The notes beneath the pieces are model-generated. The model made no database searches and was not told the origin of the DNA. It worked only from the letters and a program-made list of their open reading frames with translations. A DNA stretch of 64,000 nucleotides from Escherichia coli. GTDB taxonomy: Bacteria; Pseudomonadota; Gammaproteobacteria; Enterobacterales; Enterobacteriaceae. This document shows positions 4,753 to 40,004 of the stretch, in pieces. How positions within the stretch are numbered: position 1 is the first letter of the stretch; every line of letters begins with the position of its first letter. The position numbers were made by a program, and so were the translations under genes. The stretch lies in NCBI RefSeq assembly GCF_001677475.2, contig NZ_CP015229.1, one strand, 5' to 3'.

Positions 4753-4769
4753 TGAGCATAACGTAATGC

Positions 4770-16916: not shown

Positions 16917-17106
16917 TAAAGGCGCCGAAGCGCCTTTCAAATTGATGACAAAGTGCGTTTTTATGCCGGATGCGGCGTGAACGCCTTATCCAGCCTACAA
17001 GATCGTGCAAATTCAATACATTGCAGAGACCATGTAGGCCTGATAAACGAAGTGCATCAGGCAATGTTGAGTTTGTCATCAGCCTCAAAGGCGCCGAAGC
17101 GCCTTT
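16917..17106. repeat. REP pair (BIME/RIP-like): two inverted REP units with a linker, bracketed by duplicated hairpin AAAGGCGCCGAAGCGCCTTT
   Basis: REP unit TGCCGGATGCGGCGTGAACGCCTTATCCAGCCTAC (about 16964-16998) and inverted unit TGCCTGATGCACTTCGTTTATCAGGCCTAC (about 17033-17064); identical 20-bp hairpins at 16918-16937 and 17087-17106. Confidence 0.8.
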
Positions 17107-20002: not shown

Positions 20003-20120
20003 GAGCGATGGTTCCTGAAACGTGCAGTGAATTGTGAACCTCTCTCCTTGCGAAGAGAGTGAGGGTGAGGCGTAAAAGTTCCTCACCCTGATCCTCTCCC
20101 GCAGAAGAGGAATAAAGCCG

Positions 20121-20510
20121 TTACTCGTCTTCTAACAATGCTTCGTATGCGGTCGCATCCAGCAGTGATTCCAGTTCGCTTTCATCGCTGGCTTTGATTT
20201 TGAAAATCCAGCCGCCTGCATACGGTTCGCTGTTCACCAGTTCCGGGGAATCGCTCAGTGCGTCGTTTACCGCCACGATTTCACCGCTTACTGGCGCATA
20301 AATGTCTGACGCCGCTTTTACTGATTCGGCAACCGCGCAGTCATCGCCCGCGCTAACCGTTGCGCCCACTTCCGGCAGGTCAACAAACACCATATCGCCT
20401 AACAGCTCCTGGGCATGTTCGGTGATACCAACGGTGTAAGTGCCGTCGGCTTCTTTACGCAGCCATTCGTGTTCTTTGCTGTATTTCAGTTCTGCTGGTA
20501 CGTTGCTCAT
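20121..20510 (-). CDS. gcvH: glycine cleavage system H protein (lipoyl carrier), 129 aa
   Basis: ORF 20121..20513; lipoyl-lysine motif ESVKAAS. Confidence 0.95.
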
Positions 20511-20533
20511 CAATCAATCTCCAAAAAAGTAAA

Positions 20534-21628
20534 TCACGCGACGGCTTTACCGTTACGCACAAAAACAGGTTTCGTCACTTTAACCGGCATTTCACGGTTG
20601 CGAATTTGCACAATCGCTGTTTCACCAATACCTTCCGGCACGCGCGCCAGCGCAATGCTGTAACCCAGCGTCGGGGAGAAAGTACCGCTGGTGATAATGC
20701 CTTCATGCTGGTTGCCCTGCGCATCGGTAAAGCGTACCGGCAGTTCATTACGCAGCACGCCTTTTTCGGTCATCACCAGACCAACCAGTTTTTCTGTGCC
20801 ATGCTCACGCTGCACTTCCAGGGCTTCACGACCGATAAAGTCACGATCTGCCGGTTCCCAGGCGATAGTCCAGCCCATGTTGGCGGCTAACGGAGAAATG
20901 GTTTCGTCCATCTCCTGACCATAAAGATTCATACCCGCTTCCAGACGCAGCGTGTCACGCGCGCCCAGGCCGCATGGCTTAACGCCCGCTTCCACCAGCG
21001 CACGCCAGAAATCGGCCGCTTTTTCATTGGGCAGCGCAATTTCATAGCCCGCTTCACCGGTATAACCAGTGGTGGCAATAAACAGATCGCCCGCCTGCAC
21101 GCCAAAGAACGGTTTCATCCCTTCCACCGCCTGACGCTGGGCGTCATTAAACAGTGTGGCAGCTTTTGCCTGCGCATTCGGCCCTTGTACGGCAATCATG
21201 GAAAGGTCATCACGAACGGTAATTTCGATGCCGAAAGGTTCAGCGTGTTGGGTGATCCAGGAGAGGTCTTTTTCGCGGGTGGCGGAGTTAACAACGAGGC
21301 GGAAGAAATCTTCAGTAAAATAGTAGACGATGAGATCATCTATCACACCGCCAGAGGCATTCAACATCCCCGAGTAAAGGGCTTTGCCGCTTTTGGTGAG
21401 TTTCGCCACATCGTTCGCCAGCAGATAACGCAGAAACTCCCGGGTGCGGCTGCCGCGGAGATCGACGATGGTCATATGTGACACATCAAACATTCCGGCA
21501 TCGGTACGTACCGCATGATGTTCGTCGATTTGCGAACCGTAATGCAGCGGCATCATCCAGCCGTGGAAATCCACCATGCGAGCGCCGCAAAGCGTGTGTT
21601 GTTCGTACAAAGGAGTCTGTTGTGCCAT
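20534..21628 (-). CDS. gcvT: aminomethyltransferase, glycine cleavage T protein, 364 aa
   Basis: ORF 20534..21628; first gene of gcvTHP. Confidence 0.95.
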
Positions 21629-21990
21629 CTTGTCCTCATTGAATAAGCGGGGCTGACAACTTTTTCATGGCGAAATTATCACCACGAAACCCAGCATCGG
21701 GGCCACTCCCGGTCCCCAACGCAATCGTTCTCTTTTGTCTGAACTTACCACCGAAACAGACTGTTAACCATAAGGTAAAATTGATCATCACATTAGCTTA
21801 TGGTTAAAAAACGCCAAAATCGCAACAGAATAAAAAACCAAAAAACACACCAGTTTCTATACAAAGATGATGCTATTAGAAAGTTAATTTGAATAAGGCA
21901 ATATTAAGAACTGAAAAAATGTCAAAAAATACTAAATCAAAAAATCATGGCATTAGAAAATATAATGCGAAAACGGAGGTGAAATTAGTT
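21629..21990 (-). promoter_or_regulatory. gcvTHP promoter and upstream control region
   Basis: About 450 bp of AT-rich non-coding DNA upstream of gcvT; in K-12 this region holds the gcvT promoter and the GcvA/Lrp/PurR sites. Individual sites not mapped here. Confidence 0.5.
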
Positions 21991-22000
21991 TATTTCAAAT

Positions 22001-22032
22001 GAGGAAAATCTCCCGGCGAAAAAACCGGGAGA
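22001..22032 (-). terminator. intrinsic terminator downstream of ubiI (end of pepP-ubiH-ubiI unit)
   Basis: Perfect 8-bp stem TCTCCCGG/CCGGGAGA with 8-nt loop, followed on the minus strand by TTTTCCTC. Confidence 0.7.
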
Positions 22033-22075
22033 TGAAAGTGTGATGGGTATCAAATAAACAACAGAGGAAAAATTT

Positions 22076-23278
22076 TTAACGCAGCCATTCAGGCAAATCG
22101 TTTAATCCCATTGCCTGGCGGATAAGTTGCGGCTTAACGCCAGGAAGCGTGTCGGCCAGTTTCAAACCAATATCACGCAGCAGTTTTTTCGCCGGATTGG
22201 TACCGGAAAACAGATCGCGGAATCCCTGCATACCAGCCAGCATCAGCGCCGCACTGTGCTTGCGGCTACGCTCATAGCGACGCAGATAAATGTACTGCCC
22301 GATGTCTTTCCCCTGACGATGCAACCGTTTCAGTTCAGCAATCAGCTCTGCAGCATCCATAAAGCCGAGATTTACCCCCTGCCCCGCCAGCGGGTGAATG
22401 GTATGCGCGGCGTCGCCCACCAGCGCCAGACGATGCGCGGCAAACTGGCGCGCATAACGCCCCGTCAGTGGGAACACCTGACGCGCGCTCTCAACCTTGC
22501 ATAAGCCAAGGCGATTATCAAAAGCGATATTTAACGCGCGATTAAATTCGTCTTCACTTGCCTGCTGCATCCGCTGCGCTTCCTCTGGCGACAGTGACCA
22601 GACAATCGAGCAAAGATGCGGATCGCTAAGCGGTAAAAAGGCCAGAATGCCTTCGCCATGGAAAACCTGCCGCGCCACCGCATCATGCGGTTCTTCCGTG
22701 CGAATGGTCGCTACCAGCGCGTGATGCTGATAATCCCAGAAAGTCAGCGGAATATCGGCTTTGTTGCGCAACCAGGAATTAGCGCCGTCCGCGCCAATCA
22801 CCAGGCGCGCCGTTAACATGCTGCCATCTTTCAGCGTCAGGAAGGTTTCGTTTTCTCCCCAGGCGACCTGCTGTAATTCTGCGGGGGCCAACAGAGTGAT
22901 ATCTGACGACTGATGCGCTTTGTTCCACAGCGCGTAGTGAATCACTGAGTTTTCAACGATATGCCCAAGATGGCTATAGCCCATGCTTTGATCGTCAAAC
23001 GAAATGTGACCAAAACTGTCTTTGTCCCACACTTCCATGCCGTGATAGCAGCTGGCCCTACGAGCGAGAATGTCCTGCCAGACGCCAAGACGGGTGAGTA
23101 ATTTTTCGCTGGCGGCATTGATAGCCGAAACGCGCAGTTGTGGTGGTGCATCCGCCGCCAGAGGTTCCGGTACGCGCTGCTCCAGTACGGCAACGCGTAA
23201 GCCGCTACCCTGTAAGCCGCAGGCAACCGCCAGCCCCACCATGCCGCCGCCAACAATGGCTACATCAACACTTTGCAT
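22076..23278 (-). CDS. ubiI: FAD-dependent 2-octaprenylphenol hydroxylase UbiI (VisC), 400 aa
   Basis: ORF 22076..23278; N-terminal GGGMVG FAD-binding motif. Confidence 0.9.
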   Translation of the reverse strand: MQSVDVAIVGGGMVGLAVACGLQGSGLRVAVLEQRVPEPLAADAPPQLRVSAINAASEKLLTRLGVWQDILARRASCYHGMEVWDKDSFGHISFDDQSMGYSHLGHIVENSVIHYALWNKAHQSSDITLLAPAELQQVAWGENETFLTLKDGSMLTARLVIGADGANSWLRNKADIPLTFWDYQHHALVATIRTEEPHDAVARQVFHGEGILAFLPLSDPHLCSIVWSLSPEEAQRMQQASEDEFNRALNIAFDNRLGLCKVESARQVFPLTGRYARQFAAHRLALVGDAAHTIHPLAGQGVNLGFMDAAELIAELKRLHRQGKDIGQYIYLRRYERSRKHSAALMLAGMQGFRDLFSGTNPAKKLLRDIGLKLADTLPGVKPQLIRQAMGLNDLPEWLR

Positions 23279-23300
23279 TGTTTATTCCTTAAAACCGCCT

Positions 23301-24479
23301 TCAACGCGCCACCCAACCGAGGGTGCGCTGCGCCAGCACATCGCGTGCCGGGGTGAATAATTCCATCGTCATCAGCCCGATGTTGCGCCCGACAACCAGC
23401 GGCGTCCAACGGTTGGCAAAAAGATGTACAAGGCTGTCCGTGACGCCAATGGTTGCTTCGCGATCGCTCTGTCGACGCTGCTGATAACGACACAATACGC
23501 CGTAATCACCCATGTCTTCTCCGCGCTCCTGCGCCTGAGTCAGGGTTTCCGCAAGACTCATGACATCTCGCATACCGAGGTTGAATCCTTGCCCGGCAAT
23601 TGGGTGCAGAGTTTGCGCCGCATTGCCCACCAGCACGGTACGATGGGTAATAGGTCTGGCGGCGCGGGTTAACGCCAGCGGATAAGCACTGCGTTTACCT
23701 GCGTGGGTAATTTTCCCAAGTCGCCAACCAAAGGCCGACTGGAGTTCACGGCAAAACTTCTCATCACTCCACGACAGCACCTCTTCGCGCCGTTCCAGTG
23801 GATGACACCAGACCAGCGAACAGCGTCCGTCAGACATCGGCAACATCGCCAGCGGGCCATGTTGTGTAAAGCGTTCAAAAGCGCGCCCTTCATGCGCAAC
23901 GGAAGTCGCAACGTTGGCAATCACAGCCAGTTGTTCGTAAGGCTCCTGCTGCCAGTCAACGCCGCACGCGGTGGCTAACGCTGAATGGGTGCCATCAGCG
24001 GCTACCAGCACGCGGCCCGTCAGCGTCTCGCCACTCTCCAGCGTCACTTCAACGTGACTCTGAGTACGGGCAACGTTAGCCACGCGATCCGGGCAATGCA
24101 GCGTTACGCCAGGTGCTTTTCGCAGCAATGCAAACAGCCGTTGCCCGACATTATGCAATTCGACAACCTGCCCCAGCGCCGCCAGTTGGTAATCTTCTGC
24201 GGCGAGGGTGACGAATCCGGCATGACCACGATCGCTGACATGCACGGTAGTGATGGCGGTTGCGCAATCAGCCAAAGATTGCCAGACGCCGATGCGCGCC
24301 AGTTGCTGACAGGTACCCGCCGCCAGCGCAATAGCTCGTCCATCAAAGCCCGGATGAGCATGTGACTCTGGTGCGGTCGCCTCAATTAAATGAACCGGCA
24401 GCGCCCCGTGACTTAACCGGGAAATAGCCAGCGCCAGCGTCGCGCCCGCCATGCCGCCACCGACGATGATTACGCTCAT
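23301..24479 (-). CDS. ubiH: 2-octaprenyl-6-methoxyphenol hydroxylase UbiH, 392 aa
   Basis: ORF 23301..24479; GGGMAG FAD motif; 4-nt overlap with the pepP stop. Confidence 0.9.
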   Translation of the reverse strand: MSVIIVGGGMAGATLALAISRLSHGALPVHLIEATAPESHAHPGFDGRAIALAAGTCQQLARIGVWQSLADCATAITTVHVSDRGHAGFVTLAAEDYQLAALGQVVELHNVGQRLFALLRKAPGVTLHCPDRVANVARTQSHVEVTLESGETLTGRVLVAADGTHSALATACGVDWQQEPYEQLAVIANVATSVAHEGRAFERFTQHGPLAMLPMSDGRCSLVWCHPLERREEVLSWSDEKFCRELQSAFGWRLGKITHAGKRSAYPLALTRAARPITHRTVLVGNAAQTLHPIAGQGFNLGMRDVMSLAETLTQAQERGEDMGDYGVLCRYQQRRQSDREATIGVTDSLVHLFANRWTPLVVGRNIGLMTMELFTPARDVLAQRTLGWVAR

Positions 24480-25801
24480 TGCTTTCTCGCAGCTGCCATC
24501 AACGCTTCGATTTCTTCCGGCTTTTTCACCACGCTGGCGGTGAGGTTTTCGTTGCCGGTTTCGGTAATCACAATGTCGTCTTCAATACGAATGCCGATAC
24601 CGCGATATTGTTCTGGCACATCCGCATCCGGCGCGATATACAGACCAGGCTCTACGGTCAGTACCATCCCCGGTTCCAGAATGCGCGAGCGATCCTGACC
24701 ATAAACGCCAACGTCATGGACATCCAGTCCTAACCAGTGGCTAAGGCCATGCATAAAGAAAGGACGATGGGCGTTCTGAGCGATCAGTTCATCAACATCA
24801 CCTTTCAGAATGCCGAGTTTTACCAGGCCGCTAACCATGATACGCACCACTTCACCGGTGACTTCCTGAATGGAAGTTCCCGGACGATACAGGCGCAGGC
24901 TGGTTTCAAGAGACTCCAGCACAATGTCGTAGATTTCACGCTGGGCCTGAGTGAATTTGCCGTTGACCGGGAAGGTGCGGGTAATATCGCCAGCGTAACC
25001 TTTGTATTCGCAACCCGCATCAATCAACACCAGGTCACCGTCACGCAGTTCACACTCGTTTTCGGTGTAATGCAGAATGCAGCCGTTTTCACCGCTGCCG
25101 ACGATGGTGTTGTAGGACGGATAACGCGCACCGTGGCGGTTAAATTCGTGGTGAATTTCGCCTTCCAGATGGTACTCGAACATTCCCGGACGGCATTTTT
25201 CCATCGCCCGGGTATGCGCCAGGGCGGTGATTTCTCCCGCGCGGCGAAGTACGGCAATCTCTTCCGGCGATTTGAACAGGCGCATTTCATGGACCATGGG
25301 ACGCCAGTCGATCATCGTTGCCGGTGCGGTGAGATTTTGCCGCGAACCTTTACGCAGTTTTTCCAGCGCGCTGTTCACGATTTCATCAGCATATGCATAT
25401 TCGCCCTGGGCGTGGTAAACCACATCCAGACCATTAAGTAGTTGATAAAGTTGCTGATTAATTTCGCTGAATGCCAGTGCGCGGTCAACGCCCAGTTTCT
25501 CTGGCGCGGCATCCTGACCTAAACGACGGCCAAACCAGATCTCCGCCGTCAGGTCGCGAACGCGGTTAAACAGAACGCTGTGATTATGAGTGTCATCGCT
25601 TTTAATCAGCACCAGCACCGCTTCCGGTTCGTTAAAGCCGGTGAAGTACCAGAAGTCACTGTTCTGACGATAGGGGTATTCGCTGTCGGCGCTACGTGTT
25701 ACTTCTGGTGCAGCAAAAATCAGCGCGGCGCTGCCGGGTTGCATTTGCTCCACCAGGGCCTGACGGCGACGCTGAAACTCTTGCCGGGATATCTCACTCA
25801 T
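24476..25801 (-). CDS. pepP: Xaa-Pro aminopeptidase (aminopeptidase P II), 441 aa
   Basis: ORF 24476..26014; start at MSEISRQEF (ATG 25801..25799) gives the K-12 length; M24 metallopeptidase motifs. Confidence 0.9.
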   Translation of the reverse strand: MSEISRQEFQRRRQALVEQMQPGSAALIFAAPEVTRSADSEYPYRQNSDFWYFTGFNEPEAVLVLIKSDDTHNHSVLFNRVRDLTAEIWFGRRLGQDAAPEKLGVDRALAFSEINQQLYQLLNGLDVVYHAQGEYAYADEIVNSALEKLRKGSRQNLTAPATMIDWRPMVHEMRLFKSPEEIAVLRRAGEITALAHTRAMEKCRPGMFEYHLEGEIHHEFNRHGARYPSYNTIVGSGENGCILHYTENECELRDGDLVLIDAGCEYKGYAGDITRTFPVNGKFTQAQREIYDIVLESLETSLRLYRPGTSIQEVTGEVVRIMVSGLVKLGILKGDVDELIAQNAHRPFFMHGLSHWLGLDVHDVGVYGQDRSRILEPGMVLTVEPGLYIAPDADVPEQYRGIGIRIEDDIVITETGNENLTASVVKKPEEIEALMAAARKQ

Positions 25802-25826
25802 AACACTCTCCTTACGTTTTTTGTTT

Positions 25827-26405
25827 TTAGTGTAGAGTCGGTTTTTGTACTTCTGGCGCGGTCGGTTGCGGATGAGTAAAGGTGTCGTGGCATAACAGCG
25901 CGGCAACACGAACGTATTCGATGATCTCTTCAAGCGACATTTCAAGCTCTTCCTGATCTTCGTCTTCGTCGTAGCCCAGCTGCGCGATGTTACGCAGATC
26001 GTCGATAGCTTCACCGGTTTCTCCGGTCACTTTGTCCAGCTTCGGTTGCGTAACGCCAAGACCAAGCAGGAAGTGATTGACCCAACCTGCCAGCGCATCA
26101 GCCCGATCGAAAACGCTGACATCATCGCCATCAGGCAGATAAAGCTGAAAAAGGAAGCCGTCATCCTGCAGGGCATCGCTGGTGGCAGAGTGCATTTTGC
26201 GCAGTGCCTGTGCCAGCTCATGACCGAAAGCCATGCCTTCGTTCGTCAGGTCGTGAAGTAGCGGCAGCCATGAGCTGTCATCGTTACCGCCACATATCAT
26301 CCCGCTGATTAAACCATGCATCTCAGCAGGGGTCAGACCCGTCCCTTGTTGGTTCAGATACTGGTTCATTTCGTTGTAACCAGGCATTTCGTTCTGTATA
26401 GACAT
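25827..26405 (-). CDS. ygfB: UPF0149 family protein YgfB, 192 aa
   Basis: ORF 25827..26411; start at MSIQNEM chosen for the K-12 length. Confidence 0.8.
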
Positions 26406-26506
26406 AAGCATTCGTCGTCAAAGGGAGGAATATTCATGATATGCTACCACTTTGGGCCCTGGTGGACCAGAAAAGGGCTTGTCTCTTCTCATCAGGGTAG
26501 CTATAG

Positions 26507-26902
<396 letters not shown>

Positions 26903-26943
26903 CACTTTTCGGTTTACTGTGGTAGAGTAACCGTGAAGACAAA

Positions 26944-27127
26944 ATTTCTCTGAGATGTTCGCAAGCGGGCCAGTCCCCTGAGCCGATATTTCATACCACA
27001 AGAATGTGGCGCTCCGCGGTTGGTGAGCATGCTCGGTCCGTCCGAGAAGCCTTAAAACTGCGACGACACATTCACCTTGAACCAAGGGTTCAAGGGTTAC
27101 AGCCTGCGGCGGCATCTCGGAGATTCC
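26944..27127 (+). ncRNA. ssrS: 6S RNA
   Basis: Matches the E. coli 6S RNA as I remember it from ATTTCTCTGAGATGTTCGCAAGCGGGCCAGTCCCC to GGCATCTCGGAGATTCC; ends approximate to a few nt. Confidence 0.9.
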
Positions 27128-27201
27128 CTTCTTATCTGGCACCAGCCATGACGCAACTACCAGAACTCCCACTGACATTATCCCGACAAGAAATCCGCAA
27201 A

Positions 27202-27750
27202 ATGATTCGGCAACGTCGTCGTGCGTTAACGCCGGAACAACAGCAGGAAATGGGTCAACAAGCCGCTACCCGGATGATGACGTATCCCCCGGTGGTGATG
27301 GCACATACGGTCGCTGTATTCCTCTCTTTTGATGGCGAACTCGACACCCAGCCACTCATAGAACAACTCTGGCGCGCCGGTAAGCGCGTATATCTTCCAG
27401 TTTTGCATCCCTTTAGTGCCGGTAATTTGCTGTTCCTGAATTACCATCCGCAAAGCGAACTGGTGATGAACAGGTTGAAGATCCATGAGCCAAAACTGGA
27501 TGTGCGTGACGTGCTACCCCTTTCCCGATTAGACGTGTTGATCACACCGCTGGTCGCCTTTGATGAGTACGGTCAGCGCCTGGGAATGGGCGGTGGTTTT
27601 TATGATCGGACCTTACAAAACTGGCAGCGCTATCAAATGCAACCGGTGGGTTATGCGCATGATTGTCAGTTGGTGGAAAAACTCCCCGTTGAAGAGTGGG
27701 ATATCCCACTTCCTGCGGTGGTTACACCGTCGAAAGTCTGGGAGTGGTAA
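27202..27750 (+). CDS. fau: 5-formyltetrahydrofolate cyclo-ligase, 182 aa
   Basis: 3' part of ORF 27004..27750; start at MIRQRRRALT (ATG 27202) lies outside the 6S RNA and gives the K-12 length. Confidence 0.85.
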   Translation: MIRQRRRALTPEQQQEMGQQAATRMMTYPPVVMAHTVAVFLSFDGELDTQPLIEQLWRAGKRVYLPVLHPFSAGNLLFLNYHPQSELVMNRLKIHEPKLDVRDVLPLSRLDVLITPLVAFDEYGQRLGMGGGFYDRTLQNWQRYQMQPVGYAHDCQLVEKLPVEEWDIPLPAVVTPSKVWEW

Positions 27751-27810
27751 GGGCGACACACCTGCATCGCCCTGATTGACATCGTTGATTCTTTAACCTA
27801 ATTTAGTGAG

Positions 27811-27951
27811 TAAGGGTAAGGGAGGATTGCTCCTCCCCTGAGACTGACTGTTAATAAGCTGGGAAACTTATGAGTAACAGTACAATCAGTATGATGACAA
27901 GTCGCATCATAACCCTTCTCCTTTAAGCCCTCGCTTCGGTGAGGGCTTTTC
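27811..27951 (+). ncRNA. sibC: Sib-family antitoxin sRNA (SibC), antisense to ibsC
   Basis: Promoter TTGACA (27776-27781), 17-nt spacer, TAATTT (27799-27804); terminator hairpin AGCCCTCGCTTCGGTGAGGGCT plus T-run at 27926-27951; ends approximate. Confidence 0.65.
27851..27910 (-). CDS. ibsC: type I toxin peptide IbsC, 19 aa (MMRLVIILIVLLLISFPAY as translated here)
   Basis: Minus-strand ATG 27910..27908 to TAA 27853..27851; short hydrophobic peptide fully inside the antisense sRNA. Confidence 0.7.
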   Translation of the reverse strand: MMRLVIILIVLLLISFPAY

Positions 27952-28085
27952 CGTTACAGCCCCATGCTGCCCTGCCATCGTAAATCCCCATTAAATAAAC
28001 ACAACGCATTGATCTGACTTTGATTTATTTTCTGGAGCAGACTCGCAAAGTAGAATGCGCAACGCGGCAACGGTGTGGAGAAGGG

Positions 28086-28117
28086 ATAAAAAAACGGGCA
28101 AGTCAGTGACCTGCCCG
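28086..28117 (-). terminator. serA intrinsic terminator
   Basis: Stem CGGGCA/TGCCCG followed on the minus strand by a T-run (plus-strand ATAAAAAAA at 28086-28094). Confidence 0.65.
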
Positions 28118-28138
28118 TTGATTGTCAGAGAAGGGGAA

Positions 28139-29371
28139 TTAGTACAGCAGACGGGCGCGAATGGTACCCGGAATAGCTTTCATTGCCTGCAGCGCTTTTT
28201 CGGCAACGTCTTCGTCGGCTTCAATATCAATAACTACATAACCCATCTGGGCGGAAGTTTGCAGATATTGCGCGGCGATGTTGACCCCCTGCTCGGCAAA
28301 AATTTTGTTGAGCGCAGTTAGCACGCCCGGACGGTTTTCGTGGATGTGCATCAGACGACGCCCACCGTGCAGTGGCAGCGAGACTTCCGGGAAGTTCACC
28401 GCAGAGAGCGTTGAGCCATTGTCAGAGTACTTGATCAATTTACCCGCAACTTCCAGGCCGATATTCTCCTGCGCTTCCTGAGTCGAACCGCCAATGTGTG
28501 GCGTCAGAAGAACGTTGTCGAATTCACACAGCGGAGAGGTAAATGGATCGCTATTGGTCGCCGGTTCCGTCGGGAATACGTCGATTGCCGCCCCCGCCAG
28601 ATGTTTGCTCGCCAGCGCGTCACACAGCGCTGGAATATCCACCACAGTACCGCGCGAGGCATTAATTAGCAGCGAGCCGGGCTTCATTAGTGAAATTTCT
28701 TTCGCGCCCATCATATTTTTGGTGGACGGATTCTCTGGTACATGCAGACTCACCACATCGCTCATATTCAGCAGGTCAGAAAGATGCTGTATCTGAGTGG
28801 CGTTGCCTAGCGGCAGTTTGTTTTCAATATCATAAAAGTAAACATACATTCCCAGCGATTCAGCCAGAATGCCCAATTGCGTACCAATATGACCGTAGCC
28901 GATGATACCCAGCTTTTTGCCGCGCGCTTCAAAAGAACCCGCCGCCAGTTTGTTCCACACGCCACGGTGCGCTTTAGCATTGGCTTCCGGCACGCCGCGC
29001 AATAGCAGCAGCAGTTCGCCAATCACCAGCTCCGCAACAGAGCGAGTATTTGAGAACGGTGCGTTAAATACCGGGATACCGCGTTTTGCCGCCGCATCCA
29101 GATCAACCTGGTTTGTTCCGATACAGAAACAGCCAATAGCGACCAGTTTTTCTGCGGCGTTGATCACGTCTTCAGTCAGATGGGTACGGGATCGCAGGCC
29201 GATGAAGTGGGCATCGCGGATGGATTCTTTTAATTGTTCATCATCCAGCGCGCCTTTGTGAAATTCGATGTTGGTGTAACCAGCTGCACGAAGGCTTTCC
29301 AGCGCCTTTTGGTGCACGCCTTCTACCAGCAGAAACTTAATCTTGTCTTTCTCCAGCGATACCTTTGCCAT
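28139..29371 (-). CDS. serA: D-3-phosphoglycerate dehydrogenase, 410 aa
   Basis: ORF 28139..29371; 2-hydroxyacid dehydrogenase motifs and C-terminal ACT domain region. Confidence 0.95.
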   Translation of the reverse strand: MAKVSLEKDKIKFLLVEGVHQKALESLRAAGYTNIEFHKGALDDEQLKESIRDAHFIGLRSRTHLTEDVINAAEKLVAIGCFCIGTNQVDLDAAAKRGIPVFNAPFSNTRSVAELVIGELLLLLRGVPEANAKAHRGVWNKLAAGSFEARGKKLGIIGYGHIGTQLGILAESLGMYVYFYDIENKLPLGNATQIQHLSDLLNMSDVVSLHVPENPSTKNMMGAKEISLMKPGSLLINASRGTVVDIPALCDALASKHLAGAAIDVFPTEPATNSDPFTSPLCEFDNVLLTPHIGGSTQEAQENIGLEVAGKLIKYSDNGSTLSAVNFPEVSLPLHGGRRLMHIHENRPGVLTALNKIFAEQGVNIAAQYLQTSAQMGYVVIDIEADEDVAEKALQAMKAIPGTIRARLLY

Positions 29372-29626
29372 TTACCCAATCCTGTCTTTTGAAATGTTGT
29401 GTGCGGATTTGCGTCCGCCTTTCAACATATCAAAAAATAATATTGCGGCAATATGAACGTTTGCGTCGCGATGTTGAGGAAATATCACGCAAAGGTAATT
29501 ATTGGATGAATATGCTGGTTTAGAGGATTTATTTAGAGCAATCGACAATAGCCAGGTAAAAACGTGACACATGTCACCAAATTTAATGAAGAGAATTTTT
29601 TTAACGGGGGAGGTTCCCCCGTCAGA

Positions 29627-30286
29627 TCATTTCACAATGGTTTTGACACCGTCAGGTGTGCCAATCAGCGCAACGTCCGCGCCACGGTTAGCAAACAAGC
29701 CAACAGTCACCACGCCAGGAATCGCATTTATGGCGTTTTCCATCGCTATCGGGTCAAGGATTTCCATGCCGTGGACGTCGAGGATCACGTTGCCGTTATC
29801 GGTCACCACGCCCTGACGGTATTCCGGACGACCGCCCAGTTTCACCAGCTGGCGCGCCACTGCACTACGTGCCATCGGGATAACTTCTACTGGCAGCGGG
29901 AATTTGCCCAGAATATCAACCTGCTTGGAGGCGTCGGCAATACAGATAAATTTTTCCGCAACCGAAGCAATGATTTTTTCACGGGTCAGCGCCGCGCCGC
30001 CGCCTTTGATCATTTGCATGTGGCCGTTGATTTCATCTGCGCCATCAACGTAGATGCCAAGGCTGTCGACTTCGTTGAGATCAAAAACGTGAATGCCGAG
30101 GCTTTTCAGTTTTTCAGTGGAAGCATCTGAACTGGAAACGGCCCCTTCAATCTGGCCTTTCATTGTACCGAGCGCGTCAATAAAGTGTGCGGCGGTGGAA
30201 CCTGTACCTACACCAACAATGGTGCCGGGCTGAACATACTGAAGTGCCGCCCATCCTACTGCTTTTTTCAATTCATCCTGCGTCAT
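29627..30286 (-). CDS. rpiA: ribose-5-phosphate isomerase A, 219 aa
   Basis: ORF 29627..30322; start at [10 protein letters not shown] (ATG 30286..30284) gives the K-12 length. Confidence 0.9.
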
Positions 30287-30322
30287 GATCGTTTCGCCTG
30301 TGGTATGAAATTTCACACGCAT

Positions 30323-30520
30323 TATACTCTAAATAATTCGAGTTGCAGGAAGGCGACAAGAGAGTGACAAATTCGTCAGGAACGAATTTGCCCAGCCGCA
30401 GGCTGGCCTTCGGTGAGAGACATGGATGTCTCTCATTAATCCCCAGGAGCTTACAGAAGTAAGTGACTGGGGTGAGCGAACGCAGACGCAGCACATGCAA
30501 CTTGAAGTATGACGAGTATA
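30323..30520. repeat. ERIC/IRU element, long form with a ~70-bp internal insertion
   Basis: Contains the ERIC core AAGTAAGTGACTGGGGTGAGCG; collinear with the inverted copy at 42381..42507 except for extra DNA at about 30368-30437. Confidence 0.8.
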
Positions 30521-30566
30521 TACAAAAAAAGCGATTCAGACCCCGTTGGCAAGCCGCGTGGTTAAC

Positions 30567-30770
30567 TCATCCATAAAATATCGCGCAATGGCGGGCATCC
30601 CCTTTCGCCCGGCAAATAAAGCATACAACGGTCTGGGTATGCCGCTCCACGGTGCGAACAGAGGCAATAACGCCACGCCATTCAACATAACCAGGGCGCG
30701 AAGTCGCTAAGCGAAATGCAATAGCGCAAATCCCTGATCTTTTAAGCTGCGCGTTTAACCATTGATACAA
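30567..30770 (-). pseudogene. yqfE: short ORF in the rpiA-argP spacer, possibly the yqfE remnant
   Basis: Only the ORF track (67 aa) and its position; no recognisable domain. Confidence 0.2.
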
Positions 30771-30862
30771 ATGTTACCCACCGACGGCTTCGGTATATGC
30801 AACCTGACACAAAATTGTGTCATAGTGCAGGAAAAAGCATTTACCAGGAGCAGACAACAGCA

Positions 30863-31756
30863 ATGAAACGCCCGGACTACAGAACATTACAGGCACTGGA
30901 TGCGGTGATACGTGAACGAGGATTTGAGCGCGCGGCACAAAAGCTGTGCATTACACAATCAGCCGTCTCACAGCGCATTAAGCAACTGGAAAATATGTTC
31001 GGGCAGCCGCTGTTGGTGCGTACCGTACCGCCGCGCCCGACGGAACAAGGGCAAAAACTGCTGGCACTGCTGCGCCAGGTGGAGTTGCTGGAAGAAGAGT
31101 GGCTGGGCGATGAACAAACCGGTTCAACTCCGCTGCTGCTTTCACTGGCGGTCAACGCTGACAGTCTGGCGACGTGGTTGCTTCCGGCGCTGGCTCCTGT
31201 GTTAGCTGATTCGCCTATCCGCCTCAACTTGCAGGTAGAAGATGAAACCCGCACTCAGGAACGTCTGCGCCGTGGCGAAGTGGTCGGCGCGGTGAGTATT
31301 CAACATCAGGCGCTGCCGAGTTGTCTTGTCGATAAGCTCGGTGCGCTTGACTATCTGTTCGTCAGCTCAAAACCGTTTGCCGAAAAATATTTCCCTAACG
31401 GCGTAACGCGTTCGGCATTATTGAAAGCACCTGTGGTCGCCTTTGACCATCTTGACGATATGCACCAGGCCTTTTTGCAGCAAAACTTCGATCTGCCCCC
31501 AGGCAGCGTACCGTGCCATATCGTTAATTCTTCAGAAGCGTTCGTACAACTTGCTCGCCAGGGCACCACCTGCTGTATGATCCCGCACCTGCAAATCGAG
31601 AAAGAACTGGCCAGCGGTGAATTGATTGACTTAACGCCGGGGCTATTTCAACGCCGGATGCTCTACTGGCACCGCTTTGCTCCTGAAAGCCGCATGATGC
31701 GTAAAGTCACTGATGCGTTGCTCGATTATGGTCACAAAGTCCTTCGTCAGGATTAA
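30863..31756 (+). CDS. argP: LysR-type transcriptional regulator ArgP (IciA), 297 aa
   Basis: ORF 30797..31756; start at [10 protein letters not shown] (ATG 30863); N-terminal LysR HTH. Confidence 0.9.
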
Positions 31757-31959
31757 TCCATCAAATAATGCCTGATAGCACATATCAGGCGTTATCCTCA
31801 CTTCTTTTTGTATTCCTTGAAACACATCACAAAATAGACAAATCTCAGGCGGCAAAAAACGACGTCTGAATGCATTTTTTTTGCTGGAGACAAACCCACG
31901 TAAAAAGCTCACCGTAAGCGCAAATACCCTCATTTTGATTGCGTTTTACGGAGCAAATA

Positions 31960-34104
31960 ATGTCTAAGGTGCAGGAGTGGCAACAGCTTGCCAACAAGGA
32001 ATTGAGCCGTCGGGAGAAAACTGTCGACTCGCTGGTTCAGCAAACCGCGGAAGGGATCGCCATCAAGCCGCTGTATACCGAAGCCGATCTCGATAATCTG
32101 GAGGTGACAGGTACCCTTCCTGGTTTGCCCCCCTACGTTCGTGGCCCGCGTGCCACTATGTATACCGCCCAACCGTGGACCATCCGTCAGTATGCTGGTT
32201 TTTCAACAGCAAAAGAGTCCAACGCTTTTTATCGCCGTAACCTGGCCGCCGGGCAAAAAGGTCTTTCCGTTGCGTTTGACCTTGCCACCCACCGAGGCTA
32301 CGACTCCGATAACCCGCGCGTGGCGGGCGACGTCGGCAAAGCGGGCGTTGCTATCGACACCGTGGAAGATATGAAAGTCCTGTTCGACCAGATCCCGCTG
32401 GATAAAATGTCGGTTTCGATGACCATGAATGGCGCAGTACTACCAGTACTGGCGTTTTATATTGTCGCCGCAGAAGAGCAAGGTGTTACACCCGATAAAC
32501 TGACCGGCACCATTCAAAACGATATCCTCAAAGAGTATCTTTGCCGCAACACCTATATTTACCCGCCAAAACCGTCAATGCGTATTATCGCAGACATCAT
32601 CGCCTGGTGTTCCGGCAACATGCCGCGATTTAATACCATCAGTATCAGCGGTTACCATATGGGTGAAGCGGGTGCCAACTGCGTGCAGCAGGTAGCATTT
32701 ACGCTCGCTGATGGGATTGAGTACATCAAAGCAGCAATCTCCGCCGGGCTGAAAATTGATGACTTCGCTCCTCGCCTGTCGTTCTTCTTCGGCATTGGCA
32801 TGGATCTGTTTATGAACGTCGCCATGTTGCGTGCGGCACGTTATTTATGGAGCGAAGCGGTCAGTGGATTTGGCGCACAGGATCCGAAATCACTGGCGCT
32901 GCGTACCCACTGCCAGACCTCAGGCTGGAGCCTGACTGAACAGGATCCGTATAACAACGTTATCCGCACCACCATTGAAGCACTGGCTGCAACGCTGGGC
33001 GGTACTCAGTCACTGCATACCAACGCCTTTGATGAAGCGCTTGGTTTGCCTACCGATTTCTCAGCACGCATTGCCCGCAATACCCAGATCATCATTCAGG
33101 AAGAATCAGAACTCTGCCGCACCGTCGATCCACTGGCCGGATCCTATTACGTTGAGTCGCTGACCGATCAAATCGTCAAACAAGCCAGAGCTATTATCCA
33201 ACAGATCGACGAAGCCGGTGGCATGGCGAAAGCGATCGAAGCAGGTCTGCCAAAACGAATGATCGAAGAGGCCTCAGCGCGCGAACAGTCGCTGATCGAC
33301 CAGGGCAAGCGTGTCATCGTTGGTGTCAACAAGTACAAACTGGATCACGAAGACGAAACCGATGTACTTGAGATCGACAACGTGATGGTGCGTAACGAGC
33401 AAATTGCTTCGCTGGAACGCATTCGCGCCACCCGTGATGATGCCGCCGTAACCGCCGCGTTGAACGCCCTGACTCACGCCGCACAGCATAACGAAAACCT
33501 GCTGGCTGCCGCTGTTAATGCCGCTCGCGTTCGCGCCACCCTGGGTGAAATTTCCGATGCGCTGGAAGCCGCTTTCGACCGTTATCTGGTGCCAAGCCAG
33601 TGTGTTACCGGCGTGATTGCGCAAAGCTATCATCAGTCTGAGAAATCGGCCTCCGAGTTCGATGCCATTGTTGCGCAAACGGAGCTGTTCCTTGCCGACA
33701 ATGGTCGTCGCCCGCGCATTCTGATCGCTAAAATGGGCCAGGATGGGCACGATCGCGGCGCAAAAGTGATCGCCAGCGCCTATTCCGATCTCGGTTTCGA
33801 CGTAGATTTAAGCCCGATGTTCTCTACACCTGAAGAGATCGCCCGCCTGGCAGTAGAAAACGACGTTCACGTAGTGGGCGCATCCTCACTGGCTGCCGGT
33901 CATAAAACGCTGATCCCGGAACTGGTCGAAGCGCTGAAAAAATGGGGACGCGAAGATATCTGCGTAGTCGCCGGTGGCGTCATTCCGCCGCAGGATTACG
34001 CCTTCCTGCAAGAGCGCGGCGTGGCGGCGATTTATGGTCCAGGTACACCTATGCTCGACAGCGTGCGCGACGTACTGAATCTGATAAGCCAGCATCATGA
34101 TTAA
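31960..34104 (+). CDS. scpA: methylmalonyl-CoA mutase (sleeping beauty mutase), 714 aa
   Basis: ORF 31939..34104; start at MSKVQEWQQ (ATG 31960); C-terminal B12-binding DxHxxG motif ([10 protein letters not shown]). Confidence 0.9.
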
Positions 34105-35092
34105 TGAAGCCACGCTGGCAGAAAGTATTCGCCGCTTACGTCAGGGTGAGCGTGCCACGCTCGCCCAGGCCATGACGTTGGTGGAAAGCCGTCACCCGCG
34201 TCATCAGGCGCTAAGTACGCAGCTGCTTGATGCCATTATGCCGTTCTGTGGTAACGCCCTGCGACTGGGCGTTACCGGCACACCCGGCGCGGGGAAAAGT
34301 ACCTTTCTTGAAGCCTTTGGCATGTTGTTGATTCGTGATGGATTAAAGGTTGCGGTTATTGCGGTCGATCCCAGCAGCCCGGTCACTGGCGGTAGCATCC
34401 TCGGGGATAAAACCCGCATGAATGACCTTGCGCGTGCCGAGGCGGCGTTTATTCGCCCGGTACCCTCCTCCGGCCATCTGGGCGGTGCCAGTCAGCGAGC
34501 GCGGGAATTAATGCTGTTATGCGAAGCGGCGGGTTATGACGTAGTGATTGTCGAAACGGTTGGCGTCGGGCAGTCAGAAACGGAAGTCGCCCGCATGGTG
34601 GACTGTTTTATCTCGTTGCAAATTGCCGGTGGCGGCGATGATCTGCAGGGCATTAAAAAGGGGCTGATGGAAGTGGCAGATCTGATCGTTATCAACAAAG
34701 ACGATGGCGATAACCATACCAATGTCGCCATTGCCCGGCATATGTACGAGAGTGCCCTGCATATTCTGCGACGTAAATACGACGAATGGCAGCCACGGGT
34801 TCTGACTTGTAGCGCACTGGAAAAACGTGGAATCGATGAGATCTGGCACGCCATCATCGACTTCAAAACCGCGCTAACTGCCAGTGGTCGATTACAACAA
34901 GTGCGGCAACAACAATCGGTGGAATGGCTGCGTAAGCAGACCGAAGAAGAAGTACTGAATCGCCTGTTCGCGAATGAAGATTTCGATCGCTATTACCGCC
35001 AGACGCTTTTAGCGGTCAAAAACAATACGCTCTCACCGCGCACCGGCCTGCGGCAGCTCAGTGAATTTATCCAGACGCAATATTTTGATTAA
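34097..35092 (+). CDS. argK: G3E-family GTPase ArgK/MeaB-like, 331 aa
   Basis: ORF 34097..35092; P-loop GTPGAGKST; 8-nt overlap with scpA. Confidence 0.9.
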
Positions 35093-35102
35093 AGGAATTT
35101 TT

Positions 35103-35888
35103 ATGTCTTATCAGTATGTGAACGTTGCCACTATCAACAAAGTGGCGGTCATTGAGTTTAACTATGGCCGAAAACTTAATGCCTTAAGTAAAGTCTTTAT
35201 TGATGATCTTATGCAGGCATTAAGCGATCTCAACCGGCCGGAAATTCGCTGTATCATTTTGCGCGCGCCGAGTGGATCCAAAGTCTTCTCCGCAGGTCAC
35301 GATATTCACGAACTGCCGTCTGGCGGTCGCGATCCGCTCTCCTATGATGATCCGTTGCGTCAAATCACCCGCATGATCCAAAAATTCCAGAAACCGATCA
35401 TTTCGATGGTGGAAGGTAGTGTTTGGGGTGGCGCATTTGAAATGATCATGAGTTCCGATCTGATCATCGCCGCCAGTACCTCAACCTTCTCAATGACGCC
35501 TGTAAACCTCGGCGTCCCGTATAACCTGGTCGGCATTCACAACCTGACCCGCGACGCGGGCTTCCACATTGTCAAAGAGCTGATTTTTACCGCTTCGCCA
35601 ATCACCGCCCAGCGCGCGCTGGCTGTCGGCATCCTCAACCATGTTGTGGAAGTGGAAGAACTGGAAGATTTCACCTTACAAATGGCGCACCACATCTCTG
35701 AGAAAGCGCCGTTAGCCATTGCCGTTATCAAAGAAGAGCTGCGTGTACTGGGCGAAGCGCACACCATGAACTCCGATGAATTTGAACGTATTCAGGGGAT
35801 GCGCCGCGCGGTTTATGACAGCGAAGACTACCAGGAAGGGATGAACGCTTTCCTCGAAAAACGTAAACCTAATTTCGTTGGTCATTAA
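35103..35888 (+). CDS. scpB: methylmalonyl-CoA decarboxylase (crotonase fold), 261 aa
   Basis: ORF 35061..35888; start at MSYQYVNVAT (ATG 35103). Confidence 0.85.
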   Translation: MSYQYVNVATINKVAVIEFNYGRKLNALSKVFIDDLMQALSDLNRPEIRCIILRAPSGSKVFSAGHDIHELPSGGRDPLSYDDPLRQITRMIQKFQKPIISMVEGSVWGGAFEMIMSSDLIIAASTSTFSMTPVNLGVPYNLVGIHNLTRDAGFHIVKELIFTASPITAQRALAVGILNHVVEVEELEDFTLQMAHHISEKAPLAIAVIKEELRVLGEAHTMNSDEFERIQGMRRAVYDSEDYQEGMNAFLEKRKPNFVGH

Positions 35889-35911
35889 TCCCTGCGAACG
35901 AAGGAGTTAAA

Positions 35912-38283: not shown

Positions 38284-38421
38284 ACCCCCTCCCCCGCATC
38301 CTTGTCCGCTTAACCGTTTCAGTCAGCCTATCCTTGATGAAACCGCGAGCAAAGATAGGTGATTACGTCATGGTTTTACAGAAAATTACAGAAAAAGGAG
38401 GCAATATCGGGTAAAGGCATT

Positions 38422-38443
38422 AGCCCGACGAATACGTCGGGCT
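38422..38443 (-). other. 9-bp-stem hairpin just downstream of yggE (possible terminator or 3' stabiliser)
   Basis: AGCCCGACG-AATA-CGTCGGGCT; no clean T-run follows on the minus strand. Confidence 0.35.
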
Positions 38444-38450
38444 ACAAATA

Positions 38451-39191: not shown

Positions 39192-39283
39192 GTTAGTCTC
39201 TCCGTGTTAATTGACTTGCCTAAAATTCAGGACCTCTGGAGGCAAGCTTAGCGCCTCTGTTTTATTTTTCCATCAGATAGCGC

Positions 39284-39919: not shown

Positions 39920-40004
39920 GTTGTATATTCCGAATTAAGTATCTGATGCAGAGACTATATCGCGGGATTGTTATTAGCGGAAATTGATAATATTAATTGG
40001 CAAT

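What the first reader, a model, noticed from the sequence alone, without database searches (positions are those of the whole stretch)
27776..27951. Type I toxin-antitoxin pair ibsC / sibC in the fau-serA spacer
A 19-codon hydrophobic ORF on the minus strand lies wholly inside a plus-strand sRNA unit that has a near-consensus sigma-70 promoter and a strong terminator. The peptide as translated ends FPAY, whereas I recall FSAY for K-12 IbsC; this single difference may be real or my memory may be at fault.
Basis: partly seen in the sequence, partly recalled or inferred. Interest (0 to 1): 0.4.

Follow-up and report, generated by a model that had tools for sequence, protein, structure and literature searches.

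The report
Ordinary sibC/ibsC toxin-antitoxin locus
This is the well-known E. coli SibC/IbsC small-RNA/toxic-peptide pair in its usual place between fau and serA; its "FPAY" peptide ending is a real, common natural variant, found in more complete E. coli genomes than the K-12 laboratory-strain "FSAY" form.

Summary
Window 27776-27926 matches Rfam SIB_RNA (138 bits, E 2e-28). It is about 98% identical to the annotated K-12 sibC/ibsC locus, with the same zapA-ssrS-fau-sibC/ibsC-serA synteny. All three bases of codon 17 differ (CCA vs AGC). Pro is the majority allele: allele-specific probes hit 3,098 of 5,426 complete E. coli genomes for CCA and 2,165 for AGC. An outgroup Escherichia species has CCA at the same site, and RefSeq annotates the identical peptide as IbsC. 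The one point worth noting is that the triplet is SibC nt +49..+51, in the apical loop of target-recognition domain 1. Han et al. 2010 mutated exactly these three bases to retarget SibC to ibsD. A second difference from K-12 (27924, +113) lies in TRD2. Relative to the tandem sib/ibs pairs carried by about a third of E. coli genomes, the window's single copy looks mosaic. Nothing here is new in kind: a known locus carrying a common allele.

The parts
27776..27781 (+). sibC promoter -35 box, TTGACA (perfect consensus)
   Evidence: Sequence. Identical in K-12, the tandem copies and the outgroup. First positions of the Rfam SIB_RNA model.
27799..27804 (+). sibC promoter -10 box, TAATTT (3/6 to TATAAT), 17-nt spacer from the -35 box, 7 nt before +1. 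The spacer base 27795 is A here and G in K-12.
   Evidence: Sequence. Not called by the consensus scan. The K-12 TSS is supported by annotation and by the TSS listed in PMC4447067. 27795 A is shared with the fau-side copy of tandem genomes.
27812..27952 (+). SibC antitoxin sRNA, 141 nt (ends mapped from the K-12 annotation)
   Evidence: Gap-free alignment to K-12 sibC b4446. Rfam RF00113 at 138 bits. Predicted fold -55.2 kcal/mol, z = -5.3, the same structure as K-12.
27857..27879 (+). TRD1 (SibC +46..+68), the primary target-recognition domain. It contains the polymorphic triplet 27860-27862 (SibC +49..+51: UGG here, GCU in K-12, UGC in SibD, UCC in the second tandem copy).
   Evidence: TRD coordinates from Han et al. 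2010, PMC2943612. +49..+51 lie in the 8-nt apical loop (+48..+55) of the predicted fold. Allele counts.
27910..27926 (+). TRD2 (SibC +99..+115), antisense to the ibsC translation-initiation region. 27924 (+113) is U here and C in K-12.
   Evidence: PMC2943612. +107..+113 are single-stranded in the fold. The T allele is present in 1,933 E. coli genomes.
27925..27950 (+). SibC intrinsic terminator: 10-bp hairpin with a UUCG loop (27925-27948), then a short U run ending at 27950. 27950 is T here and A in every compared locus.
   Evidence: Fold -17.3 kcal/mol.. Not called by the terminator scan because the T tract is short.
27851..27910 (-). ibsC ORF: 19 codons plus TAA, encoding MMRLVIILIVLLLISFPAY
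   Evidence: Translation. Identical to RefSeq WP_071525914.1 'toxin IbsC' in strain HH97. One codon differs from K-12 b4665.
27918..27923 (-). ibsC Shine-Dalgarno sequence AAGGAG, 7 nt upstream of the ATG; covered by TRD2 of SibC
   Evidence: Sequence. Identical in all compared copies. Single-stranded in the predicted ibsC mRNA fold.
27812..27970 (-). ibsC mRNA, about 159 nt (inferred from K-12 mapping): +1 at 27970, 3' end near 27812
   Evidence: Han et al. report an 18-nt 5' overhang beyond SibC and pairings of ibsC G50/G51/G53 with SibC C110/C109/C107. Together these give ibsC nt x = window 27971-x. Fold -63 kcal/mol, z = -5.4.
27977..28004 (-). Putative ibsC promoter: -10 TACGAT (27982->27977) and -35 TTGTGT (28004->27999), 16-nt spacer. 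Inferred from position only.
   Evidence: Read from the sequence relative to the mapped +1. The region is identical to K-12. Not called by the consensus scan.

Best explanation
This is the orthologue of the E. coli K-12 sibC/ibsC type I toxin-antitoxin module, present as a single copy between fau and serA. The minus strand gives a roughly 159-nt mRNA for IbsC, a 19-residue hydrophobic peptide. When over-made in K-12, IbsC depolarises the inner membrane and kills the cell. The plus strand gives the 141-nt SibC RNA from a promoter with a consensus -35 box. SibC is perfectly complementary to the whole ibsC ORF and ribosome-binding site. It first contacts the mRNA through two single-stranded elements: the TRD1 hairpin loop, which pairs within the ORF near codon 17, and the TRD2 stretch before the terminator, which pairs with the Shine-Dalgarno/start region. 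Pairing then spreads, translation is blocked, and the duplex is probably cleaved by RNase III. Shown here: sequence and structure membership, synteny, an intact ORF, SD and promoter, and the same predicted fold as K-12. Taken from K-12 experiments: transcription, toxicity and the repression mechanism. The FPAY ending is the commoner natural allele in the E. coli genomes searched and probably the ancestral one; the K-12 FSAY form is the minority allele. Because the two genes share the same DNA, any change is automatically compensated in the cognate pair. So the allele should not disturb self-repression, and at most it alters discrimination against paralogous ibs mRNAs.
For: Membership and orthology:
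- Rfam SIB_RNA, 138.2 bits vs gathering score 56, full length.
- 97.8% identity to K-12 and 99.0% to strain HH97 over 406 nt, with no indels.
- Same gene order as the K-12 annotation.
- RefSeq names the identical peptide IbsC.
- The locus is present in 5,422-5,425 of 5,426 complete E. coli genomes.

The Pro allele:
- Allele-specific probes hit 3,098 genomes for CCA/Pro, 2,165 for AGC/Ser and 1,844 for GGA/Gly, the last seen in the serA-side copy of both tandem loci examined.
- The outgroup Escherichia sp. E1V33 has CCA at the orthologous fau-serA site.
- Pro is the commonest residue at position 17 in 25 distinct Ibs peptides.
- K-12 IbsB and IbsE also have Pro there, and IbsE is annotated as a toxic peptide.

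Structure and mechanism:
- SibC folds identically for both alleles, with +49..+51 in an apical loop and +107..+113 unpaired.
- TRD1/TRD2 definitions, EMSA, structure probing and co-transformation data come from PMC2943612.
- An EsigmaS ChIP peak, a matching TSS and northern detection of SibC come from PMC4447067.
- Membrane depolarisation and toxicity of IbsC are summarised in PMC8309996, and RNase III involvement in PMC4147584.
Against: No expression or toxicity data exist for this particular sequence or strain. The -10 box is a poor consensus match and neither promoter nor terminator was called by the simple scanner, although the same is true of the functional K-12 locus. Toxicity of the exact P17 IbsC peptide was not found in any paper I could read (the Mok 2010 mutagenesis paper is not held). 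In principle proline near the C-terminus could alter the helix, and the C-terminal residues are reported to be needed for toxicity.
Confidence: 0.95

Rival explanations
1. The Pro allele is more than a neutral variant. The triplet at SibC +49..+51 is the TRD1 specificity determinant, so the UGG allele changes which ibs mRNAs SibC can recognise (for example partial cross-repression of ibsD, whose TRD1 triplet is UGC). On this reading the hypervariability of Ibs residue 17 is driven by selection on RNA-RNA discrimination, not on the peptide.
For: Han et al. changed exactly G49C50U51 to UGC and thereby made SibC repress ibsD. The window's UGG is one base from UGC: complementarity to K-12 ibsD around TRD1 becomes 14 + 8 nt with a single mismatch, against 12 + 8 nt with three mismatches for K-12 SibC. 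Residue 17 is the most variable position in the family, at 2.2 bits, and sits between invariant S15 and Y19. The two copies in tandem genomes differ at this same triplet (UGG vs UCC). The other functional-region difference from K-12 (27924) falls in TRD2.
Against: At least about 1,600 genomes must carry both SibC-UGG and the K-12-type SibD-UGC (3,098 + 3,953 - 5,426). So the near-identity is evidently tolerated, and one loop mismatch plus the +60 difference may be enough for discrimination. Cross-repression would in any case be harmless (extra antitoxin). Han et al. already state that the TRDs lie in hypervariable regions used for discrimination, so the principle is known. No experiment here.
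Confidence: 0.25
2. The window's single copy is a secondary product: a collapsed tandem pair. It would have arisen by unequal crossover or gene conversion between a fau-side copy and a serA-side copy, rather than descending unchanged from a single ancestral copy.
For: The diagnostic sites are mosaic. 27795 A and TRD1 TGG match the fau-side copy of tandem genomes, while 27924 T and the downstream flank match the serA-side copy. 1,933 genomes carry the T allele; the sampled hits are mostly annotated ibsC, which is the serA-side copy in the one tandem genome aligned. Another single-copy strain, O19:H7 730V1, shows a similar mosaic. About 1,850 genomes have two copies.
Against: Only three or four informative sites are involved. 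Recombination between lineages or recurrent mutation could give the same pattern. Other sites (A4 alignment columns 103 and 159, window 27841 and 27897) do not fit a single clean crossover and vary between strains. The direction of the event, duplication or collapse, cannot be read from this sample.
Confidence: 0.35
3. The Pro substitution inactivates the toxin, so this is a decaying module with a still-expressed antisense RNA.
For: Proline is a helix breaker. C-terminal residues 6-19 are reported as required for IbsC toxicity.
Against: Pro is the commoner allele in the E. coli genomes searched (57% of complete genomes) and is present in an outgroup species. It is the commonest state across Ibs paralogues, including K-12 IbsE, which is annotated as toxic. 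The ORF length, start codon, SD and all other residues are intact. True decay looks different, for example the frameshifted copy in Citrobacter sp. MGH106 (L021).
Confidence: 0.04

Closest known systems
E. coli K-12 MG1655 sibC (b4446) / ibsC (b4665)
   Same: Same chromosomal position (fau-serA spacer). The RNA and ORF have the same lengths and the predicted fold is the same. The -35 box, -10 box, SD, start codon, stop codon and terminator hairpin are identical. 97.8% DNA identity over 406 nt.
   Different: Codon 17 is CCA (Pro) instead of AGC (Ser), which is UGG instead of GCU in the SibC TRD1 loop. There are three further single-base differences inside the unit: 27795 in the promoter spacer, 27924 in TRD2 and the ibsC 5'UTR, and 27950 in the terminator tail.
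RefSeq IbsC WP_071525914.1 (e.g. E. coli strain HH97), the Pro-17 allele
   Same: Identical peptide, MMRLVIILIVLLLISFPAY. Single-copy locus, 99.0% DNA identity over 406 nt.
   Different: HH97 has G at 27795, C at 27924 and A at 27950, i.e. K-12-like TRD2 and terminator tail.
Tandem sib/ibs pair at fau-serA in many E. coli genomes (e.g. strain 95_0274; O157:H7 Sakai is reported to carry 7 Ibs genes)
   Same: Same repeat unit. The fau-side copy carries the same TRD1 triplet (TGG/Pro) and 27795 A. The serA-side copy carries the same TRD2 base (27924 T) and downstream flank (PMC2887945).
   Different: The window has one copy, not two. The second copy in tandem genomes encodes ...SFGAY (GGA).
SibD/IbsD (K-12 b4447/b4664), the paralogue used to define Sib specificity
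   Same: Same family and architecture. Its TRD1 triplet UGC is one base from the window's UGG.
   Different: Different locus (yqiK-hldE). It has Ala at residue 17, a different TRD2 and about 82% similarity to SibC (PMC2943612).
Other chromosomal type I toxin-antitoxin pairs (Hok/Sok, Ldr/Rdl, TisB/IstR-1, H. pylori AapA/IsoA)
   Same: A small hydrophobic membrane toxin whose translation is repressed by an antisense RNA (PMC8309996, PMC4147584).
   Different: Sib covers the entire ORF and ribosome-binding site of its target and uses two independent recognition domains. There is no sequence relationship to these other families.

Membership tests
Sib antitoxin RNA (Rfam RF00113 SIB_RNA) | Sequence plus secondary structure match to the family covariance model above the curated gathering score | tested here: met
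   138.2 bits vs gathering score 56, E 2e-28, model positions 1-147 of 147, at window 27776-27926 (repeated).
Sib antitoxin RNA (Rfam RF00113 SIB_RNA) | RNA of about 140 nt whose recognition elements (P5 loop/TRD1 and J1/7/TRD2) are single-stranded in a stable fold ending in a terminator hairpin | tested here: met
   141 nt by mapping from K-12. MFE -55.2 kcal/mol, z = -5.3. +48..+55 form an apical loop, +107..+113 are unpaired, and the terminator stem is +114..+137. The dot-bracket is identical to K-12 SibC.
Ibs type I toxin | ORF of 18-19 codons for a highly hydrophobic peptide with the family pattern MM..VIIL....L..S[FL].[AT]Y, with its own SD, on the strand opposite sib | tested here: met
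   MMRLVIILIVLLLISFPAY, 15/19 hydrophobic. AAGGAG lies 7 nt upstream of the ATG. The peptide fits the pattern seen in 25 distinct Ibs peptides from 24 loci plus K-12. RefSeq names the identical peptide IbsC.
Ibs/Sib module | The antitoxin RNA overlaps the entire toxin ORF and its ribosome-binding site in antisense | tested here: met
   SibC 27812-27952 contains the ORF (27851-27910) and the SD (27918-23). The RNA ends are inferred from the K-12 annotation through a gap-free alignment.
sibC/ibsC orthologue specifically | Located between fau (ygfA) and serA, downstream of ssrS | tested here: met
   6S RNA at 26944-27127, fau ending at 27750 and the serA stop at 28139-28141. Same order as K-12 and HH97. 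The R3-L4 signature of IbsC is present.
Ibs/Sib module | Both strands transcribed from their own promoters | tested here: inconclusive
   The consensus scan called no promoter on either strand. By eye, the sibC promoter is TTGACA-17-TAATTT and the ibsC promoter is TTGTGT-16-TACGAT. Both are identical to K-12 apart from one spacer base, and in K-12 the start sites were mapped and the RNAs detected (PMC2943612; PMC4447067). There are no expression data for this strain.
Ibs/Sib module | Peptide toxic on over-expression, with toxicity relieved by the cognate Sib RNA | not testable with these tools
   Shown for K-12 IbsC(S17)/SibC (PMC2943612; PMC8309996). Not shown for the P17 allele in any paper I could read.

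The most novel reading that the evidence does not exclude
The Pro/Ser/Gly 'protein' polymorphism at IbsC residue 17 is really an RNA specificity polymorphism. E. coli populations carry at least three alleles (UGG, GCU, UCC) of the exact three-nucleotide TRD1 determinant that Han et al. showed decides which ibs mRNA a Sib RNA recognises. These alleles, together with the TRD2 variant at +113, are shuffled by recombination between tandem copies. If so, the window's UGG/U113 SibC would have a measurably different target range from K-12 SibC (for example partial recognition of ibsD or of the other ibsC alleles). Residue 17 of the toxin would then be hypervariable because it is read through the antitoxin's kissing loop.
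Probability: 0.2. Interest if true: 0.4.

Novelty: already known. Interest (0 to 1): 0.12.

Why it matters
For the scan, the main value is as a positive control: a tool-less reader correctly recognised a 19-codon toxin gene hidden antisense inside an sRNA, and correctly recalled a one-residue difference from K-12. Biologically the locus is textbook. The modest added value is threefold. First, the K-12 reference allele (Ser17, TRD1 GCU), on which all Sib specificity experiments were done, is the minority form in E. coli. Second, natural alleles differ at precisely the three nucleotides shown experimentally to set SibC/SibD specificity. Third, about a third of strains carry a tandem pair differing at that same triplet. 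This gives a ready-made natural allelic series for testing how cis-antisense antitoxins stay insulated from their paralogues.

Tried and rejected
- Chance or non-homology: rejected by the Rfam score and the K-12 alignment.
- 'FPAY is a misreading or a rare novelty': rejected. It is real, RefSeq-annotated, and found in 57% of complete genomes.
- 'The window-specific SNPs 27795, 27924 and 27950 are private mutations': rejected for 27795 and 27924, which are shared with copies in tandem genomes. Only 27950 T was not seen in any compared locus.
- Promoter/terminator scan: it found nothing on the sib or ibs strands, only the serA terminator. This reflects the scanner's thresholds (-10 box 3/6, short U tract) and says nothing about function.
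The other protein-family tools also state a 20-residue minimum, so I relied on RefSeq annotation of identical peptides instead.
- Papers not held: Fozo 2008 (PMC2597788), Mok 2010 (PMC3009890) and Fozo 2012. Residue-level toxicity data for position 17 could therefore not be checked.
- Source strain: the exact-Fau lookup found many lineages but none with the window's exact sib haplotype. No complete E. coli genome exceeds 98.9% identity over the spacer or about 98.7% over 20 kb. The source lineage remains unidentified.
- A weak Rfam hit, sR32 at 27246-27300 (20.8 bits vs gathering score 40), was dismissed as chance.

Full report
**1. What is in the sequence**

Window 27740-28145 is the spacer between fau (stop codon ending at 27750) and serA (minus strand, stop at 28139-28141), just downstream of the 6S RNA gene (26944-27127). 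The Rfam scan of the whole window gives a full-length SIB_RNA (RF00113) match at 27776-27926: 138.2 bits against a gathering score of 56, E 2e-28 (confirmed). It is the only Sib copy in the window.

On the minus strand, 27910->27851 reads ATG ATG CGA ... TTC CCA GCT TAT TAA, which translates to MMRLVIILIVLLLISFPAY*.

**2. Identity**

The K-12 MG1655 record annotates the same arrangement: zapA, ssrS, fau, sibC (ncRNA b4446, 141 nt) with ibsC (b4665, 'toxic peptide IbsC') inside it on the opposite strand, then serA. The window aligns to K-12 without gaps, at 97.8% over 406 nt.

Mapping the K-12 coordinates gives these positions in the window:
- SibC RNA: 27812-27952.
- sibC promoter: TTGACA (27776-81), 17 nt, TAATTT (27799-804), with +1 at 27812.
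- Terminator hairpin: 27925-27948, -17.3 kcal/mol, UUCG loop.

The simple scanner called neither the promoter (the -10 box is only 3/6) nor the terminator (the T tract is short). Both are essentially identical to the functional K-12 elements.

The locus is nearly universal: 5,422-5,425 of 5,426 complete E. coli genomes have it.

**3. FPAY versus FSAY**

It is not a point mutation. Codon 17 is CCA here and AGC in K-12, so all three bases differ (plus strand TGG vs GCT, 27860-27862). Strain HH97, the closest complete genome (99.0%), has the identical Pro peptide, which RefSeq names IbsC (WP_071525914.1).

I built 53-nt probes of 25 nt + codon + 25 nt, so that every 28-nt megablast seed must span the codon. 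The counts among 5,426 complete E. coli genomes are:

| Plus-strand triplet | Codon 17 | Genomes |
|---|---|---|
| TGG | CCA, Pro | 3,098 (57%) |
| GCT | AGC, Ser | 2,165 (40%) |
| TCC | GGA, Gly | 1,844 (34%) |

In the two tandem loci I examined, the Gly allele sits in the serA-side copy of a tandem pair: fau, then an Ibs-family toxin (TGG), then ibsC (TCC), then serA. This agrees with roughly 1,870 genomes showing two places for the locus probe, and with the published count of seven Ibs genes in O157:H7 Sakai (PMC2887945).

Evidence that Pro is the older state:
- A scan of one genome per species found that Escherichia sp. E1V33 has TTG-CCA (Leu-Pro) at the orthologous fau-serA site. CCA/Pro is therefore probably ancestral and the K-12 AGC derived. 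This rests on a single outgroup.
- Across 25 distinct Ibs peptides, residue 17 is the most variable position (2.2 bits; P 11, A 4, H 3, Q 3, S 3, G 1). It sits between invariant S15 and Y19. Note that residues 1-2 and 5-8 are fixed by the search pattern.
- K-12 IbsB and IbsE also have Pro there.

**4. How it works**

The mechanism is taken from K-12 experiments; the anatomy is verified here.

Han et al. 2010 (PMC2943612) showed the following:
- SibC recognises ibsC mRNA through two independent domains. TRD1 (+46..+68, the P5 loop) pairs inside the ORF, and TRD2 (+99..+115, the J1/7 single strand) pairs with the translation-initiation region.
- Pairing then spreads from these sites.
- Non-cognate SibD does not bind ibsC mRNA unless the two are denatured and annealed.

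From their reported pairings (ibsC G50/51/53 with SibC C110/109/107) and the 18-nt 5' overhang, ibsC mRNA +1 maps to window 27970 and its 3' end to about 27812. A TACGAT -10 box lies at 27982->27977 (inference).

Other K-12 evidence:
- RNase III probably degrades the duplex (PMC4147584).
- IbsC over-production depolarises the membrane and kills the cell (PMC8309996).
- An EsigmaS ChIP-seq peak, a TSS equivalent to window 27812, and northern blots document SibC transcription. The promoter is used by sigma-S as well as presumably by sigma-70 (PMC4447067).

In the window, TRD1 is 27857-27879 and TRD2 is 27910-27926. The predicted SibC fold is identical for the two alleles (-55.2 and -55.3 kcal/mol, z about -5.3 and -5.5). 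Nucleotides +48..+55 form an apical loop and +107..+113 are unpaired.

**5. The one noteworthy point**

The polymorphic codon is SibC +49..+51. To convert SibC into an ibsD repressor, Han et al. changed 'G49CU51 to UGC', which is exactly these three nucleotides.

The window's UGG is one base from the SibD triplet. Around TRD1, complementarity to K-12 ibsD becomes 14 + 8 nt with one mismatch, against 12 + 8 nt with three mismatches for K-12 SibC. The K-12-type SibD triplet is present in 3,953 genomes. By counting, at least about 1,600 genomes must therefore carry SibC-UGG and SibD-UGC together, so this near-identity is evidently tolerated.

The second difference from K-12 in a functional region, 27924 C->T (+113), lies in TRD2, directly 5' of the ibsC Shine-Dalgarno sequence on the other strand. 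It is not private, as 1,933 genomes have it. The sampled hits are mostly annotated ibsC, which is the serA-side copy in the tandem genome I aligned.

Together with 27795 A and TGG, both of which match the fau-side copy, the window's single copy looks mosaic between the two tandem copies. A similar single-copy mosaic exists in O19:H7 strain 730V1. Whether this reflects collapse of a tandem pair or lineage recombination cannot be decided from three or four sites.

In the predicted ibsC mRNA, the loop opposite TRD1 is UCCC here and UUCAGC in K-12. The K-12 loop contains a YUNR tetranucleotide (UUCA) and the window's does not. I cannot tell whether this is the motif Han et al. refer to, because the figure is not available.

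Because toxin and antitoxin are read from the same base pairs, all these changes are self-compensating for the cognate pair.

**6. Verdict**

This is a known system and a known gene pair, carrying a common (majority) allele that public annotation already names. The small corrections are:
- The -10 box is weak by consensus.
- The terminator has a strong hairpin but a short U tract.
- The promoter is also bound by sigma-S RNA polymerase.
- The Pro/Ser difference is a whole-codon polymorphism located in the antitoxin's specificity loop.

Interest is low. The only residual idea is that natural TRD1/TRD2 alleles alter Sib target range. That is an extension of a published principle and needs experiments.

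Noticed in passing
fau-serA spacer in other genomes: L029 842-1600 (E. coli 95_0274), L012 1-700: About a third of complete E. coli genomes (about 1,850; O157:H7 hits are among those showing two places) carry two tandem sib/ibs units here. In the two tandem loci examined, the fau-side copy encodes ...FPAY (...MMRLA... in strain 95_0274) and the serA-side copy encodes ...FGAY. The two copies differ at the TRD1 triplet (UGG vs UCC) and at +61.
   Followed up: partly
window 27795, 27860-27862, 27924 vs L029: The window's single copy is mosaic. The promoter-spacer base and TRD1 match the fau-side tandem copy, while TRD2 and the downstream flank match the serA-side copy. This suggests unequal crossover or gene conversion. 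O19:H7 730V1 (L030) shows a similar single-copy mosaic and an L4F change.
   Followed up: partly
window 27950: T instead of A in the SibC terminator tail (UUUU vs UUUA). It was not seen in any of the roughly ten loci compared and would, if anything, lengthen the U tract.
   Followed up: no
window 20000-40000 and 27700-28140: No complete E. coli genome in the collection is more than 98.9% identical over the spacer or about 98.7% over 20 kb. The window therefore comes from an E. coli-group lineage not represented among 5,426 complete E. coli assemblies. Shigella is a possibility because it is not in that collection, but I did not test this.
   Followed up: partly
window 27004-27750: The mechanical ORF list gives a 248-aa ORF starting inside the 6S RNA gene. 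The K-12 fau start corresponds to window 27202 (182 aa), whereas PGAP calls a 603-nt fau in other strains. The fau start annotation is inconsistent between records.
   Followed up: no
window 16999-17041 and 41147-41189: Two Rfam ES036 (CssrF) sRNA matches just above the gathering score (40.8 and 47.3 bits vs 37.6). The sequences end in ...GTAGGCCT, which looks like part of a repeated element.
   Followed up: no
L031 2508-2966 (GCA_974490495.1): In one genome with the same Fau protein, a 152-aa Y1_Tnp (PF01797, IS200/RAYT-type transposase) gene sits between the sib/ibs unit and serA.
   Followed up: no
H30: E. coli O157:H7 strain TR01, NZ_CP033605.1 3897178-3897437: This genome matches only the fau and serA ends of the spacer (59% coverage) and appears to have lost the sib/ibs unit. 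Four of 5,426 genomes lack a match to the 90-nt ibsC probe.
   Followed up: no
L021 6013-6043 (Citrobacter sp. MGH106): A Sib-type repeat whose Ibs reading frame is disrupted (MMKRVIILGAVTDKF...). It is an example of a decayed copy, in contrast to the intact window ORF.
   Followed up: no
window 28093-28119 (minus strand): A strong intrinsic terminator (12-bp stem, T7 tail) immediately after the serA stop. It was the only terminator the scanner called in the spacer.
   Followed up: no
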